This document shows, piece by piece, positions 10,803 through 55,923 of a stretch of 64,000 bases of DNA. How positions within the stretch are numbered: the first letter of the stretch is position 1; every line of letters starts with the position of its first letter. Origin of the DNA: the human T2T-CHM13v2.0 reference genome, Homo sapiens. Made by a program: the position numbers and the translations under genes. Under the pieces are notes generated by a model that saw only the letters and a program-made list of their open reading frames with translations, was not told the DNA's origin and searched no databases. The stretch lies in assembly GCF_009914755.1 (NCBI RefSeq), contig NC_060943.1; one strand, given 5' to 3'.

Positions 10803-10885
10803 CTGAGGAAGAGCCATCCCTGGCTCCTTTTCTTTGCTCCTCTTGGTGTCTTCCTCACGTAACATGAGTCTTTGGAAAATCAATC
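10803..10885 (-). other. Orphan start-codon exon B (MLREEDTKRSKEKEPGMALPQ), intergenic, upstream of the ZNF600 promoter
   Basis: Acceptor tacag at 10885, ATG at 10865, 63-nt open CDS, donor CAG|gtggag at 10803; flanks are homologous to those of ZNF600/ZNF28 exon 2. Confidence 0.8.
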
Positions 10886-11910
10886 CTGTATGTAAAAAAA
10901 AATACGAGATTTAATTTTTAGAAATCACTCCCTCCTTTCCTGTGACAAAACACACACACAGGGGAGACCTCACCAGGGAGAAAGATGGTTCTCTGCTGCC
11001 CACTGCACCAGAGATTATGTGGAGATAAGAAGGTGCCACAGGAAGACCTACAAGGGCAATTTTGACCTGTTTTGAGGTCTTGCTCCCTCCTGCAAAAGTC
11101 CACACACACGCTGCAGCAGGACACAGATCTTCAGGGCACAGATCTGGCCCTAACCAAACCCCATGCAGAGCACAGCCCCCTCACCTCCCTGTGGATCACA
11201 GGCTGATCTCAGCTCTCAACATGGAGGAAACTGCCTTGATGTTCAATGCTGGAGACAGATGAGAATCACCTGCACCATTGTAGGTATTATTGAGGGTGGG
11301 TCCCATACTGTGATAATAGCAATCTCTGATAAAACAGCATAGAAGCTATATTTGCAAAATGCCTGAAAACCCTAATGTGAAGCCAAGTTTGAGCTCCACT
11401 CAGGGCACCAGCCCCGCAGAGCCCCACCTTCTGGCTCTGCTCTCCGCTTGGGGACTTGTTCCCACCAGGATCCAGTGAACAGCGAAGGAGCAAAAAGGAT
11501 CACACAGAACAGGCAACATGGGCCAGAGATGGGGGTGAAGGTGGGGCTGTCATGTCAAATGGGGGACTGCGGGAGAACACAAAAGTTTTCATAGAAAAAG
11601 TGATGTCAGAACAAAGACTTAGGGAAGAAAGGCTGCTTGTCACTTGCAGCTGAGTGGCCAGAGAGTCCTAGGCAGAGGGACAGCCCAGGTGAAGGCCCTG
11701 AGAAAGGAGCAACCTGAGTCCCAGAAAAAGAAAAGAAGCCTGCATGGTTACAGTAGAGGTAGGGAGGAGGACAGAGGCAGGAGTTGATGTCACAGAGCTC
11801 CTGGGACTCAGATATCTAGGGATGAGGTCTTGAAACATTTTTCTCTCACATCTCAACTCAAAAGAATTTTGGAAATGTATTTTCTCACTCATTTTATGTA
11901 TACATGTAAC

Positions 11911-12012
11911 TTTCTCTTCTATACGTTGTCTCTGTGTCTCTTTCTTTTCAAAGTGTCTCGTTCCACCTGACGAGAAATGCCCACAGGTGTGGAGGGGCAA
12001 CCCACCTCTTCA
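11911..12012 (+). mobile_element. 3'-terminal ~100 nt of a HERV-K(HML-2) LTR (LTR5B-like)
   Basis: TTGTCTCTGTGTC...CCACCTGACGAGAAA...CACAGGTGTGGAGGGGCAACCCACCTCTTCA matches the recalled LTR5 U5 end. Confidence 0.75.
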
Positions 12013-12236
12013 CCAATGCAATCCATCCTGGGCAATGGAGCGAGACTCTATCACAAACAAGTACAGAGTCCAGCCAGGGAGGCTGTCTCACACCTGGAAT
12101 GCCAGCAATTTGGGAGGCCAACATGGGAGGATCCCTTGAGGCCAGGAGATCAAGGCTATGGTGAGGTATGATTGCAGCACTGTACTCCAGCCTGGACAAC
12201 AAAATTAAAAAAAATATGAAAAATACGGCCGTACAC

Positions 12237-51667: not shown

Positions 51668-54600
51668 TATTTTTTTCTTTATTTTTGAGAAAGAGTTACA
51701 CTCTTATTGCCCAGGCTAGAGTGCAATGGCCTGATCTTGGCTCACTGTAACCTCTGCCTCCTGGGTTCAAGTGATTCTCCTGTCTCAGCCTCCTGTGTAG
51801 CTGGGATTTCAGGCATGTGCCACCACACCCAGCTAATTTTTGTATTTGTAGTAGAGATGGGGTTTTACCATGTTGGCCAGGCTGGTCTCGAACTCCTGAC
51901 CTCAGGTGATCTGCCCGTCTCGGCCGCCCAAAGTACTGGGATTACAGGCTTGAGCCACCGCACCCGGCCATCCATTGTTTTCTGTTCAGTAGATTCGAGG
52001 ATTCAGCATGTTGGACTGACTGGTCTCAAACTCCTCACCTCAAGTGATCTACCCACCTCAGCCTCCCAAAGTGCTGGGATTAGAGGTGTGAGCCACCATG
52101 GCCAGCCAGTCTACGCCGTTTCTGACAGGACAGTGAAATGACGGAGACAGGAAAAGGAGCATGTCATCATCAACATCGCTGAAGGCTGACAACTCTTATT
52201 ACACAAAGGCAGTTTACAGCCTGTCATATAAAAGCTGCAATGTGTGAAGCCATCTAACAGCACTAACTTGTTTAAAAACCTGGAGGCAGCTGGGAACGGT
52301 GGCTCATGCTTGTAATCCCAACACTTTGGAAGACCTAGGCAGGTGGATCACCTGAAGTTGGGAGTTTGAGAGCAGTCTGACTGACATGGAAAAACCCCGT
52401 CTCTACTTCAAATACAAAATTAGCTGGGTGTGGTGGTGCATGCCTGTAATCCCAGCTACTTGGGAGCCTCAGGCAGGAGAATAGCTTGAACCTGTGGGCA
52501 GAGGCTGCAGTGAGCTGAGGTTGCACCACTGCAGTCCAGCGTGGGCAACAAGAGCGAAACTCCATCTCAAAAAACAAACAAACAAAAAATCTGGAGAAAA
52601 ATTAACATTATTTCTCAAATAAGTTCTCAAATAAGTACAGCAGGCCCCCAGTGTTCACGTACATGACCCCAATTTGCACATACAGTAAGTGAGGGACAAA
52701 CTTGATCCTGGGCCTGAAGGATCCCACGACATGTTTCTAAGCACAATAGTCCACCAAGAAAGTACAGAAAACAACCAGTCACAAAAAATACAAGGAGAAC
52801 AGAAAGAAGTACATCAAGGGGGATACAAGGGCTGAGCTGGGACACAAGCGCTGAGCTGCGCTGCTGACAGTGGTTCTGAAGCCATCCCTCATGGATCATG
52901 TGCTGAGTCATGACGCCCTGCACACACTGATTTAGGCAGCCTCCTATAATTTTGTCCAGTGAATGAATAAGGTCTTCACTTACTCAGGGAGAGTAGTGTT
53001 GGAGGGGAGGGGCTCACAGGGAAATTGGGGTGTTCACTTTTACAAAGTCAATAGGCTGGTATTTGCATCCAGATCAATGTATCATGTGAGGCAAGGCCAG
53101 GAAAGGAAGGGCAAGGGTGGAGAGCAGGAAGTAATGGGCATGTAGGAGTGAACTTTGTGCATGCACGTCTGTGGGAATATAATTCCACCAGGATAGACCA
53201 AATCTTGAGCTCGGAGGAAAGTGGAACTAATTTAGCAAATGGTAAAACATTGACCCAAGCTTAAATATGCAAATTACAATACAGGCAAGGGACAAGAATG
53301 AACGAGATCCAAAAAAGCAGCAGTATGGTGACCTGAGGTGAAAGCAGTTTTACGTCTCTTAAATTAAATGGCCTCTGATACCTAGTTTCAAGCATATACT
53401 CAACAATATGCCTTGTATAGATTCCAGAATTTCATACACACACACAAAATGAGTAAAGTCTACGAGGAGTGCAGCAATGAAGGAGACCATGGATGTGAAG
53501 AATTCCCTGGCTGAGTAGGTAGAGATGTGTCTGTGGAAACAGAGACAGACTGAGCGCAGTGGCTCATGCCTGTAATAACAATCATAATAATAATGACAGG
53601 TTTTTTCTGTTTTCTCTTTTTTTGAGATGGAGTGTCACTCTATTGCTCAGGCTGGAGTGCAGTGGTGTGATCTCGGCTCAATGCAACCCCTGCCACCCAG
53701 GTTTAAGCAATTCTCTTGCCTCAGCCTCCCGAGTAGCTGGGATAACAGGCGCCTGCCACCAGGCCTGGCTAAAAGTTTGTATTTATTTTTGTTTTTTTGT
53801 TTTTTTGTTTTTTTTTGAGACAGAGTCTTGGTCTGTCTCCCAGGCTGGAGTGCAGTGGTGCAATCTCGGCTCACTGCAAGCTCCACCTCCCAGATTCACG
53901 CCACTCTCCTGCCTCAGCCTCCCAAGTAGCTGGGACTACAGGTGCCCGCCACCACGCCCAGCTAATTTTTTTTGTATTTTTATTAGAGATGGGGTTTCAC
54001 CGTGTTAGCCAGGATGGTCTCGATCTCCCGACCTCATGATCTGCCCACCTCGGCCTCCCAAAGTGCTGGGATTACAGGCATGTGCCACTGCTCCCATCCT
54101 AAATTTTGTATTTTTAGTAGATACAGGGTTTCCCCATTTTGGTCAGGCTGGTCTTGAACTCCTGAGCACCCGACTCAGCCTCCCAAAGTGCTGGGATTAC
54201 AGGCATAAGCCACCATGCCCAGCCCCTTCTTACTATTAACTCATTATTGTGATAGTTGACAACAATGAAAAATCTTAAAATCATTACAATTATTATAAAA
54301 AATAAAACAATGCAAATGTTGTGTTTTCTACATAAACCATGGGCTTATCCATCCACGTATTCATGCACACACATCACATCACAGTGTAATCCCAGCTACT
54401 CGAGAGGCTCAGGCAAAAGAATCGCTGTAATCCAGGAAGCGGAGGCTACAGTGAGAAAATATCTCACTACTGCACTCCAGCCTGAGTGACAGATTGAAAC
54501 TGAACTAACAAAAAAATAAGTAAAATCAATGATGTGATAAAGCATCCTGTACCACTGATGTGTATCTTCACTTTCCATTCCTTTCCGAGTCATTAAAACT

Positions 54601-55841
54601 GCAGAGACAGGCCGGGCACGGTGGCTCAGGCTTGTAATCCCAGCACTTTGGGAGGCTAAGGTGAAAAAACACAAGGTCAGGAGTTCCTGACCAGCCTGAC
54701 CAATATGGTGAAATCTCATCTCTACTAAGAATACAGAAAAATTAGTCAGGCAAGGTGGCACATGCCTGTAATCCCAGCCACTCGGGAGGCTAAGGCAGAA
54801 GAATTGCTTGAACCCAGGAGGCAGATGTTGCAGTCAGCTGAGATCCCATCACTGCACTCCAGCTTGGGCAATAGAGCGAGACTCCATCTCAAAATAAATA
54901 AATAAATAAAACAATTAGCCGCTTGTGGTGACACATGCCTATCATTCAAGCTCTTTGGGAGGCTGAAGTGGGGATTACTTGAGCCAAGGAGTTTCAGGCT
55001 GCTGTAAACTCTAAATTGTGCCATTGTACTCCAGAACTAAGCTACAGAGCGACATTTTCTCTCTCTCTCTCCTTTTTTTTCTTTTGAGATGGAGTCTTGC
55101 CCTGTTGCCTAGGCTGGAGTGCAGTGGCACAATCTTGGCTTACTGTAACCTCCACCTCCCGGATTCAAGTGATTCTCCTGCCTCAGCCTCCTGAGTGGCT
55201 GAGATTACAGGCATGAGCCACGACTTCCAGCTAATTTTTGTATTTTTATTAGAGATGAGGTTTTACCACATGGGCCAGGCTGGTCTCAAACTCCTGACCT
55301 CAAGTGATCCACCTGCCTTGGCTCCCAAAGTGCTGGGATTACAGGCATAAGCCACCACACCCAGACCAACATCCTGTCTACTAGTGTGCCTTCAAATGCA
55401 TTAAGAAATTGGATACAAAATGTCTCCCCTTATTGGTCTCCTTTTCCAGAATTTACCAGATATCTGTGCACATTAATGTATGTATTTCATATGTAGTTTC
55501 TCTGATCTGGTCCACGAAGAGCTGACATCCAGACATGACCCTTGAACAATCCAGGTTGCCCAGCAGCACTGACACCATGGGGCCCACACCCTGTGTCCAT
55601 CCATGTCTAGGTGTGAGGCCTTCCCAGGACCATGCCCAGTGGAACCTCTTCTCAAGTTCATGTCACTGGGTCACAGGAGATGGAATCTCAGAGCAGGTGA
55701 GAGGAACTGAGGGCAGGCATGGGTGAGTGTGAGTGAACCTGTCAGGCAAAATGCTTCAGACTCAGAAATGACTGGCTACTAAATACCTGGTGTTTCAGAA
55801 AGGAAAGAGACAGATTAATCCAAAGAGGAATATCACTTCAC

Positions 55842-55923
55842 CTGAGGAAGAGCCATGCCTGGCTCCTTTCCTTTCCTCTTCTGAGCTGCTTCCTCATGTA
55901 ACATGAGTCTTTAGAAATCAATC
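55842..55923 (-). other. Orphan start-codon exon E (MLHEEAAQKRKGKEPGMALPQ), intergenic between ZNF468 and ZNF28
   Basis: Acceptor gtacag at 55923, ATG at 55904, 63-nt open CDS, donor CAG|gtgaag at 55842. Confidence 0.82.

What the first reader, a model, noticed from the sequence alone, without database searches (positions are those of the whole stretch)
10803..55923. Array of intact orphan start-codon exons between ZNF genes: possible variable-first-exon system
Seen: besides the genic copies (1300-1381 and 40277-40364), three intergenic copies B (10803-10885), C (13964-14045) and E (55842-55923) each keep the AG acceptor, both ATGs, a stop-free 63-nt CDS and a GT donor. Their surrounding gene skeletons have lost KRAB and finger exons and accumulated many indels. 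All end in phase 0, and the ZNF28 KRAB-A exon starts in phase 0. Inference: B and C could splice to the ZNF600 KRAB exon, and E to the ZNF28 or ZNF600 KRAB exon. That would give alternative N-termini and promoters, loosely like the variable exons of UGT1A or the protocadherins. Caveat: a 63-nt exon can stay intact by chance in young duplicates.
Basis: partly seen in the sequence, partly recalled or inferred. Interest (0 to 1): 0.8.

Follow-up and report, generated by a model that had tools for sequence, protein, structure and literature searches.

The report
Leftover start exons between ZNF genes
The three "orphan" start-codon exons between ZNF600, ZNF28 and ZNF468 are real and look spliceable, but they are promoter-less leftovers of tandem gene duplication that would change only a few residues of a short leader; one is already annotated as a ZNF600 first exon, so this is an ordinary by-product and not a variable-exon system.

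Summary
On the minus strand the window has exactly five copies of the KZNF start-codon exon. B, C and E each keep the AG, both ATGs, a 63-nt open frame and the GT.

- The copies lie in paralogous blocks whose introns are about as similar as the exons (exon vs flank, Fisher p 0.06-0.85 in 10 of 10 pairs).
- B, C and E have no promoter homolog, CpG island, KRAB-A relic or finger relic.
- Lineage-specific substitutions show no constraint in C or B. E shows only a nominal signal (0/80 vs 28/656, one-sided P=0.031).
- A neutral simulation keeps all features with P about 0.4-0.5 for C or E and 0.2-0.3 for B.
- Other cluster orphans have decayed.
- Splicing to the ZNF600 or ZNF28 KRAB-A exon is in frame. 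It would change only 1, 2 or 7 residues of a 16-aa leader that other family genes lack.
- The hub's RefSeq table already lists 55842-55941 (E) as a ZNF600 exon, and lists nothing at B or C.

Verdict: duplication relics, with E opportunistically used as a 5' exon. Low interest.

The parts
1300..1381 (-). Copy A: genuine start-codon exon of ZNF600 (type I); CDS 1300-1362
   Evidence: sequence; hub RefSeq table; feature test True
10803..10885 (-). Copy B: orphan start-codon exon (type II), about 1.5 kb upstream of the ZNF600 TSS. Keeps AG, ATG1, ATG2, 63-nt ORF and GT. Donor is CAG|GTGGAG
   Evidence: Paralogous block 10357-11550 ~ A 874-2062 at 78%. Lineage-specific substitutions: exon 1/74 vs flank 9/309
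13964..14045 (-). Copy C: orphan start-codon exon (type I), 5.8 kb downstream of the ZNF28 3' end. All signals intact; donor 9-mer identical to A
   Evidence: Block 12701-14952 ~ A 41-2279 at 86.8%. Lineage-specific substitutions: exon 4/80 vs flank 23/649, no constraint
40277..40364 (-). Copy D: genuine ZNF28 start exon (type III, 6-nt insertion, first ATG is TTG); CDS 40277-40291
   Evidence: hub RefSeq table
55842..55941 (-). Copy E (exon homolog 55842-55923, type I), 4.4 kb downstream of the ZNF468 3' end. All signals intact. RefSeq lists 55842-55941 as the 5'-most exon of a ZNF600 transcript
   Evidence: hub RefSeq table. Lineage-specific substitutions: exon 0/80 vs flank 28/656, one-sided P=0.031
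49434..50336 (-). Skeleton F: homolog of the intron just downstream of the start exon. The exon itself is missing; homology stops about 6 nt after the donor position and Alu-like sequence follows. Best match is to B's intron (86%)
   Evidence: 10634-10794 ~ 50175-50334 at 86.3%; 844-1141 ~ 49607-49907; 1132-1293 ~ 50176-50336; alignment
12695..22907 (-). Duplication unit 1: C block + upstream intron-1 homolog + ZNF28 3' flank and terminal exon. Paralogous to unit 2
   Evidence: 12695-15104 ~ 54621-56993 (87.9%), 16185-16914 ~ 57994-58702 (88.8%), 17145-18205 ~ 58698-59766 (85.5%), 18967-22907 ~ 59933-63873 (85.9%)
54621..63873 (-). Duplication unit 2: E block + upstream intron-1 homolog + ZNF468 3' flank and terminal exon
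   Evidence: same HSPs as unit 1
7691..9386 (-). ZNF600 promoter/exon-1 block with CpG island. Its only paralog in the window is the ZNF28 promoter
   Evidence: 7691-9386 ~ 42411-44125, 80.2%; CpG-island-like windows 8701-9201+; only Alu-part hits upstream of B, C, E, F
42411..44125 (-). ZNF28 promoter/exon-1 block with CpG island
30480..30606 (-). ZNF28 KRAB-A exon (phase 0), the only KRAB-A in the window
   Evidence: tblastn and blastn give only the self hit plus noise at E>0.1

Best explanation
B, C and E (and the exon-less F) are promoter-less fragments of the 5' part of KRAB-ZNF genes, each comprising part of intron 1, the start-codon exon and part of intron 2. They were left behind by repeated tandem (segmental) duplication and deletion in the primate-expanded 19q13.4 ZNF cluster.

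They look intact because they are short and only moderately diverged, not because they are maintained. Their preserved donor sites can still be used when transcription happens to pass through them. This is what the RefSeq model with exon 55842-55941 shows for E: a transcript that starts, or is 5'-incomplete, just upstream of E and splices from the E donor into ZNF600.

Inferred consequences for E depend on the acceptor. Spliced directly to KRAB-A, it gives a ZNF600 protein with one residue changed (Cys3 to His). Spliced to another annotated acceptor, it usually gives a 5'UTR with a short upstream ORF. B and C are most likely silent intronic or intergenic relics.

Shown: the anatomy, the paralogy, the absence of promoters, KRAB and fingers, the reading-frame compatibility, and the divergence statistics. 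Inferred: the neutrality, the read-through or cryptic-TSS origin of the E transcript, and the non-use of B and C.
For: 1. Paralogy extends far beyond the exon at similar identity. A, C and E blocks of about 2.3 kb are 86-88% identical. C plus the ZNF28 3' exon parallels E plus the ZNF468 3' exon over about 10 kb.
2. Exon divergence is lower than flank divergence in 10 of 10 pairs but significant in none (Fisher p 0.062-0.852).
3. Lineage-specific substitutions: C exon 4/80 vs flank 23/649; B 1/74 vs 9/309; pooled C+E 4/160 vs 51/1305 (p=0.51).
4. No CpG island within 600 nt upstream of B, C or E (o/e 0.15, 0.19, 0.15; real TSSs 0.58 and 0.81). No promoter homolog. No KRAB-A or finger relic.
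5. Neutral simulation gives P(all features kept) 0.40-0.52 at d=0.05 and 0.22-0.29 at d=0.10.
6. Decay is seen in sister copies. F lost the exon. The orphan at -37.2 kb has ATG2 changed to CTG. The copy at -255 kb is split and has lost both ATGs. Even copies inside gene spans are damaged: 1-nt deletion in the ZNF320-span copy, AG to AT in the ZNF888-span copy. Of the 7 orphans within the hub-annotated range (B, C, E, F and those at -17.1, -37.2 and -78.4 kb), 5 keep AG+ATG2+GT.
7. The residue-3 differences (CGT/CAT/TGT) are CpG transitions.
8. The hub table lists an exon at E but none at B or C among 15 ZNF600 and 10 ZNF28 transcripts.
Against: - E has no lineage-specific substitution in 80 exon sites against 4.3% in its flanks (one-sided P=0.031, uncorrected for three orphans tested). 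Its exon is letter-identical to the copy at -275 kb while the flanks are about 84% identical. This could reflect weak constraint or gene conversion.
- The joint neutral probability that B, C and E all keep every feature is only about 0.03-0.08 under the strictest criteria.
- 5 of 7 orphans keeping the core signals is on the high side.
- No RNA data and no primate orthologs were available, so use of B and C is not excluded.
- The curation status (NM or XM) and the downstream junction of the E-containing RefSeq model are not given.
Confidence: 0.78

Rival explanations
1. One reading: B, C and E form a functional array of alternative first coding exons. Each would be driven from its own regulatory region and spliced to the ZNF600 (or ZNF28) KRAB exon, giving alternative promoters and N-termini like UGT1A or the clustered protocadherins.
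For: - All signals are intact in B, C and E.
- The phase fits both KRAB-A exons.
- The E donor is used in a RefSeq ZNF600 model (hub table).
- E's exon has 0/80 lineage-specific changes.
- The hub lists RefSeq enhancer elements at 12237-12767 and 13299-13828, between B and C.
Against: - No promoter homolog or CpG island at any of the three.
- The encoded difference is 1, 2 or 7 residues of a 16-aa leader. That leader is missing in type III genes such as ZNF28 and ZNF468 and frameshifted in the ZNF320-span copy.
- C evolves at or above the flank rate (4/80 vs 23/649).
- No exon is annotated at B or C.
- Sister orphans have decayed.
Confidence: 0.05
2. The orphan exons are kept as non-coding regulatory 5' exons. 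They would capture read-through transcription from the upstream ZNF gene, or from nearby enhancers or LTRs, through their acceptor or donor. This would add a short upstream ORF to the downstream gene's mRNA and couple or dampen expression of neighbouring KZNF genes.
For: - Each of four consecutive genes (ZNF468, ZNF28, ZNF600, ZNF611) is followed 3.6-5.8 kb downstream, on the same strand, by an orphan start exon (plus hub coordinates).
- E spliced to 11 of 12 tested acceptors gives a short ORF that ends within the next exon; splicing into any other copy of the exon stops after 22 codons.
- The E-containing ZNF600 model spans ZNF28 (hub).
- Genes of this cluster are reported as co-regulated through LTR5B elements in endoderm (PMC9684439, passages read).
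Against: - The regular spacing is what duplication of a unit that already contained a relic would produce.
- There is no conservation signal in B or C.
- No expression data are at hand.
- One orphan lost ATG2 and one lost the exon without any visible compensation.
Confidence: 0.1
3. The exons stay intact without function because short-tract gene conversion from the functional paralogs (ZNF600, ZNF611 and others) repeatedly overwrites them.
For: - E's exon is identical to the copy at -275 kb and differs from ZNF611's by 2 nt, while flanks differ by 8-16%.
- Exon identity exceeds flank identity in 10 of 10 pairs.
Against: - None of the 10 pair differences is significant.
- C carries 4 private exon changes.
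- The high-identity stretch also includes about 100 nt of downstream intron (sliding identity 0.92-0.98), as expected from plain mutational heterogeneity.
- No formal conversion test was run.
Confidence: 0.07

Closest known systems
Partial-gene relics of tandem segmental duplication in primate KRAB-ZNF clusters (19q13.4 'cluster 19.12', primate-specific Group II; Tadepally et al. 2008, PMC2443715, passages read)
   Same: Same cluster and the same process of tandem duplication with gene loss. Paralogous blocks include introns and 3' flanks. Fragments lack a promoter, KRAB and fingers.
   Different: The passages I read deal with whole genes and annotated pseudogenes, not isolated start-codon exons. 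My four literature searches found no description of these particular orphan exons.
Alternative 5' exons created by tandem exon duplication (general phenomenon; recalled from the literature, no call)
   Same: A duplicated exon upstream of a gene keeps its donor and is used as an alternative 5' exon, as the RefSeq ZNF600 model does with E (hub table).
   Different: Here whole gene fragments were duplicated, not an exon within a gene. The alternative exon changes at most one residue of the protein.
UGT1A and clustered protocadherin variable-first-exon loci (recalled, no call)
   Same: An array of start-codon-bearing exons upstream of shared downstream exons, all with phase-compatible donors.
   Different: In those loci each variable exon has its own promoter and encodes a large, divergent functional domain. 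Here there are no promoters. The exons retain an acceptor, so they descend from internal exons. They encode 21 codons, of which only a 16-aa leader varies.
Conjoined or read-through KZNF transcripts such as ZNF816-ZNF321P (hub annotation)
   Same: Long transcript models that start upstream of a neighbouring gene and splice across it, like the ZNF600 span -13375..55941 that covers ZNF28.
   Different: The E model starts at a relic exon rather than at the neighbour's own promoter. Whether it arises by read-through from ZNF468 is inference.

Membership tests
Variable-first-exon locus (UGT1A / clustered protocadherin type) | Each variable exon is preceded by its own promoter | tested here: not met
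   CpG o/e for exon + 600 nt upstream: B 0.15, C 0.19, E 0.15, against 0.58 (ZNF600 TSS) and 0.81 (ZNF28 TSS). No homolog of the promoter block upstream of B, C, E or F; only Alu-part hits. Non-CpG promoters were not excluded.
Variable-first-exon locus (UGT1A / clustered protocadherin type) | The variable exon encodes a substantial, diversified protein domain | tested here: not met
   21 codons. The last 5 (MALPQ) are identical. The leader differs from ZNF600's by 1 (E), 2 (C) or 7 (B) residues. The leader is absent in type III genes.
Variable-first-exon locus (UGT1A / clustered protocadherin type) | All variable exons are spliced to a common set of constant exons | tested here: inconclusive
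   Phase compatibility is met for both KRAB-A exons. The hub table shows an exon at E only, with its downstream partner not given, and nothing at B or C. No RNA data are available.
Variable-first-exon locus (UGT1A / clustered protocadherin type) | Variable exons are maintained by selection (exon slower than flanks) | tested here: inconclusive
   Paralog comparison only. Pairwise Fisher p 0.06-0.85. Lineage-specific: E 0/80 vs 28/656 (P=0.031), C 4/80 vs 23/649, B 1/74 vs 9/309. Ortholog comparison was not possible.
Relic of partial tandem gene duplication | Homology extends into non-coding flanks at similar divergence to the exon | tested here: met
   (blocks of 1.2-2.4 kb at 78-88%; about 10 kb collinear between the C and E units).
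Relic of partial tandem gene duplication | The rest of the gene (promoter, KRAB, finger exon) is missing | tested here: met
Relic of partial tandem gene duplication | Sister copies show a spectrum of neutral decay | tested here: met
   F lost the exon. The -37.2 kb orphan has ATG2 changed to CTG. The -255 kb copy is split with both ATGs lost. The +201 kb copy has lost both ATGs and carries a 1-nt deletion. The gene status of the last two is unknown.
Annotated alternative 5' exon of ZNF600 | The exon with this donor is present in a transcript model | not testable with these tools
   Taken from the hub's RefSeq table (exon 55842-55941; ZNF600 span to 55941). I could not see the model's accession, its support or its next exon.

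The most novel reading that the evidence does not exclude
E, and by extension the orphan start exons that sit 3.6-5.8 kb downstream of ZNF468, ZNF28, ZNF600 and ZNF611, is a selected 5' exon. It would let the next gene downstream be transcribed from its upstream neighbour's 3' flank or read-through. This would link expression of adjacent primate-specific KZNF genes and add a translated leader or an upstream ORF. The absence of any private substitution in E's exon (0/80 vs 4.3% in flanks) would then be real constraint.
Probability: 0.1. Interest if true: 0.45.

Novelty: new member of a known kind. Interest (0 to 1): 0.2.

Why it matters
If the relics were a true variable-exon system, it would be a new way for the fast-evolving KRAB-ZNF family to diversify regulation. 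The evidence instead points to ordinary duplication debris, with one relic (E) already captured in RefSeq as a ZNF600 5' exon.

The practical value is for annotation. Intact-looking start-codon exons in ZNF clusters should not be read as coding novelty. Long ZNF600 models that span ZNF28 begin at such a relic. The census of orphan copies gives a small natural series for how fast splice sites and start codons decay.

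Tried and rejected
- Literature: four searches found nothing on orphan start exons, ZNF600 alternative first exons or ZNF28/ZNF600 chimeras. One search (3,529 papers holding at least 3 of the 6 terms) listed no paper containing ZNF600 among the 20 shown. Supplements were not opened.
- Processed retrocopy on chr3. 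I asked whether it records an E-to-ZNF600 mRNA. It carries start exon + KRAB-A + finger exon abutting. Its body is only about 80% identical to ZNF600's terminal exon and at best 85% to any chr19 gene. It is therefore old or diverged and says nothing about E specifically; rejected as evidence.
- LTR-like promoter upstream of E. The sequence abutting the orphan at -37.2 kb was used as a query. It gave only Alu hits plus two short fragments (34741-34881 and 11918-11999) in the window and none near E.
- Decayed promoter upstream of B, C, E, F. A sensitive blastn (word 7) gave only Alu-part hits.
- No splice-site strength model (MaxEnt) was available, so I only compared the sites with those of the genic copies.
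- Gene-conversion tests, ortholog comparisons and any RNA evidence could not be run with these tools.

Full report
**Setting**

The window is human chr19 (T2T-CHM13 55,862,001-55,926,000) in the 19q13.4 KRAB-ZNF cluster. All the genes concerned run on the minus strand. The order, from high to low coordinates, is ZNF468 (3' exon), E, F, ZNF28 (promoter, D, KRAB-A, finger exon), C, B, then ZNF600 (promoter, 5'UTR exons, A). ZNF600's KRAB-A and finger exons lie below coordinate 1.

**1.

- blastn-short with each copy as query finds these five and no sixth exon in the window.
- A script test for AG + ATG1 + ATG2 + stop-free 63-nt frame + GT returns True for A, B, C and E.
- D (ZNF28) has TTG at the first ATG and a 6-nt insertion. 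It uses only the second ATG, as the hub's CDS 40277-40291 says.
- C and E have the same donor 9-mer as the functional copy A (CAG|GTGAAG). B has CAG|GTGGAG. All have pyrimidine tracts before the AG.
- The donor leaves phase 0. The ZNF28 KRAB-A exon 30480-30606 reads [12 protein letters not shown]... in frame 0.
- I located the ZNF600 KRAB-A exon outside the window, at about -2962..-2836, flanked by AG and GT and also in frame 0.

**2.

- A sixth skeleton, F (49434-50336), is homologous to the intron immediately downstream of the exon: 80-86% to A, B, C, D and E, and best to B. The homology ends about 6 nt after the donor position, and Alu-like sequence stands where the exon should be. One of the four non-genic skeletons in the window has therefore lost the exon.
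- The hub's RefSeq table lists exon 55842-55941 among ZNF600 transcripts and extends the ZNF600 span to 55941. The E donor is thus already in an annotated model that runs across ZNF28. No exon is listed at B or C for either gene.

**3. Architecture**

Self-comparison of the window, with interspersed repeats filtered by copy number, shows that the exons sit inside large paralogous blocks.

- A 23-2279 ~ C 12701-14952 (86.8%) ~ E 54609-56832 (86.1%).
- B 10357-11550 ~ A 874-2062 (78%).
- D 39836-40592 ~ A 863-1647 (73%).
- C-to-E homology continues upstream through an intron-1 homolog (16185-16914 ~ 57994-58702, 88.8%). It then runs into the 3' flank and terminal exon of the preceding gene (18967-22907 of ZNF28 ~ 59933-63873 of ZNF468, 85.9%).
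- The unit 'ZNF terminal exon + 4-6 kb + start-exon fragment' was therefore duplicated as a whole.
- The promoter/exon-1 block of ZNF600 (7691-9386) has a single paralog, the ZNF28 promoter (42411-44125, 80.2%).
- B and F are positional equivalents upstream of those two promoters.

What B, C and E lack:

- A sensitive search for decayed promoter copies upstream of B, C, E and F found only hits to an Alu part of the query.
- CpG-island-like windows occur at the two real TSSs, in Alus and in the PABPN1P2 region, but not near B, C or E.
- KRAB-A and finger-exon homology (only 20882-24151 and 61794-63998) are absent around B, C, E and F.

These are promoter-less 5' gene fragments.

**4. The family in the whole genome**

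- A search of the window's own assembly with E ± 100 nt gave 41 matches: 40 in the chr19 cluster and 1 on chr3.
- Alignment of the 30 stored loci shows three exon types:
  - Type I: A, C, E, the ZNF611-span copy, and four others.
  - Type II: B and copies inside the ZNF320, ZNF816-ZNF321P and ZNF83/LOC122539214 spans, among others.
  - Type III: D, ZNF468 and many others. These have no first ATG and a 6-nt insertion.
- Within the range for which the hub gives gene spans, seven copies lie outside any same-strand gene body other than the long ZNF600 model: B, C, E, F and the copies at -17.1 kb, -37.2 kb and -78.4 kb. Five of these seven keep AG + ATG2 + GT. The -37.2 kb copy has ATG2 changed to CTG, and F has no exon.
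- Further away, a copy at -255 kb is split by an insertion and has lost both ATGs. One at +201 kb has lost both ATGs and has a 1-nt deletion. Their gene status is unknown to me.
- Copies inside gene spans are also damaged in the leader. The ZNF320-span copy has a 1-nt deletion between the ATGs. The ZNF888-span copy has AT instead of AG at the acceptor.
- The 16-residue leader upstream of MALPQ is therefore not a conserved coding feature of the family.
- Each of ZNF468, ZNF28, ZNF600 and ZNF611 is followed 3.6-5.8 kb downstream by an orphan start exon (plus hub coordinates). This is as expected if the duplicated unit already contained a relic.

**5. Is the exon protected?**

*Pairwise substitutions.* Exon against 240 nt upstream plus 440 nt downstream:
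- The exon is less diverged in 10 of 10 pairs, for example C-E 4/82 vs 72/678 and A-E 4/82 vs 81/676.
- No pair is significant (Fisher p 0.062-0.852), and the pairs are not independent.

*Lineage-specific substitutions.* Sites where a copy differs from its relatives:

| Copy | Exon | Flank | One-sided P |
|---|---|---|---|
| E | 0/80 | 28/656 | 0.031 |
| C | 4/80 | 23/649 | 0.85 |
| B | 1/74 | 9/309 | 0.36 |
| ZNF611-span copy | 0/81 | 15/641 | 0.147 |
| -275 kb copy (L006) | 0/80 | 25/648 | 0.043 |
| ZNF816-span copy | 0/74 | 14/314 | 0.034 |

- Pooled C+E is 4/160 vs 51/1305 (p=0.51).
- The only hint is for E. It is nominal and does not survive correction for three tests.
- An earlier version of the test that included the -37.2 kb copy gave E 0/70 vs 14/416, P=0.091.

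*Neutral simulation.* Transition bias 2:1, with or without an indel rate of 0.004 per site:
- All features are kept with P=0.52-0.68 at 3% divergence, 0.40-0.52 at 5% and 0.27-0.35 at 8% for the type I exon.
- For B's exon the values are 0.29-0.37, 0.22-0.29 and 0.17-0.22 at 8, 10 and 12%.
- The joint value for C, E and B at 5%, 5% and 10% is about 0.03-0.08. That is low but not compelling, because the criteria were chosen after seeing the data and decayed copies exist elsewhere in the family.
- The residue-3 variation (CGT Arg, CAT His, TGT Cys) is what CpG deamination produces.

**6. Consequences of the proposed splicing**

- Joined to ZNF600 KRAB-A, E gives the ZNF600 N-terminus with Cys3 to His. 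C gives Cys3 to His plus Ala7 to Thr. B changes 7 of 16 leader residues.
- Joined to ZNF28 KRAB-A, they add a 16-residue leader to MALPQ.
- Joined to 11 of the 12 other acceptors tested, the E frame stops inside the next exon, so it becomes an upstream ORF. These acceptors were annotated ZNF600 exons plus copies A, B, C and D. In any other copy of the exon the frame reads GAT TGA and stops after 22 codons.
- The exception is the exon ending at 5913, which stays open through the exon.
- Nothing resembling a variable domain is encoded.

**7. Explanation**

B, C, E and F are relics of partial gene copies generated by tandem duplication and deletion in a primate-expanded cluster. Context comes from Tadepally et al. 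2008 (PMC2443715, passages read) and Pontis et al. 2022 (PMC9684439, passages read). The latter reports ZNF611, ZNF600, ZNF28, ZNF468 and ZNF320 as co-induced in endoderm through LTR5B elements.

The E donor is opportunistically used in a long ZNF600 model. The annotated 5' end lies 18 nt into what is intron in the paralogs, in non-CpG sequence. This suggests a cryptic start or a 5'-incomplete read-through from ZNF468, 4.4 kb upstream; that point is inference. B and C have no annotated use although that model transcribes through them. I put 0.78 on this reading.

**8. Comparison with known systems**

The locus works like other cases where a duplicated exon becomes an alternative 5' exon. It fails two defining features of UGT1A/protocadherin-type loci: an own promoter per exon, and a substantial variable domain. 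The remaining two features are inconclusive or untestable here.

The names UGT1A, protocadherin and 'tandem exon duplication' come from recall, not from a call. The identification of the sequence abutting the -37.2 kb orphan as the 3' end of an LTR5-type element, and of the chr3 retrocopy as a named gene, would also rest on recall. I therefore leave both unnamed.

**9. Limits**

No RNA data, no primate genomes, no repeat library and no splice-strength model were available. The RefSeq model's accession, support and next exon were not given. Supplements of the two papers were not opened. The whole-genome search scores only the best 40 candidates, so the census is a lower bound.

Noticed in passing
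window 49434-50336 (minus strand): Sixth paralogous skeleton (F). It is an intron-2 homolog whose start exon is gone. Homology stops about 6 nt past the donor position and an Alu-like poly-A-ended sequence follows. It is closest to B's intron (86%), which suggests B and F are positional equivalents upstream of the ZNF600 and ZNF28 promoters.
   Followed up: yes
L024 (G000 chr3:31,990,528-31,993,609), positions 1501-3074: Intronless processed copy of a family member. The start exon (98% to E), KRAB-A and the finger exon abut directly. Further copies of this kind matched on chr4, chr5 and chr17. The best chr19 match for the body is only 85%, so the parent is unclear.
   Followed up: partly
L007 (window about -37,225..-37,100, outside the window): Type I orphan start exon upstream of the ZNF611 TSS with ATG2 mutated to CTG. 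From about 15 nt upstream of its acceptor the paralogous intron is replaced by unrelated sequence that, from recall only, resembles the 3' end of an LTR in sense orientation. The displaced upstream-intron piece matched about 2.3 kb further up.
   Followed up: partly
window -78.4 kb, -17.1 kb, 14.0 kb, 55.9 kb (L017, L019, C, E): Each of four consecutive genes (ZNF611, ZNF600, ZNF28, ZNF468) is followed 3.6-5.8 kb downstream by an orphan start exon. Type III orphans follow the type I genes, and type I orphans follow the type III genes.
   Followed up: partly
L010 (window about 96.2 kb, ZNF320 span) and L022 (about 140.4 kb, ZNF888 span): Copies inside annotated gene spans are themselves imperfect. 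L010 has a 1-nt deletion between the two ATGs. L022 has AT instead of AG at the acceptor. The leader, and even the acceptor, are therefore dispensable in some family members.
   Followed up: no
window 33759-34600: Internally repetitive, GC-rich stretch (many offset self-matches at 70-82%) inside the PABPN1P2 / masked region 33186-35133.
   Followed up: no
L006 (window about -275.6 kb, plus strand): Its start exon is letter-for-letter identical to E's over 82 nt, although the 282-nt region is only 84% identical. The cause could be shared ancestral state plus the same CpG change, or gene conversion.
   Followed up: no
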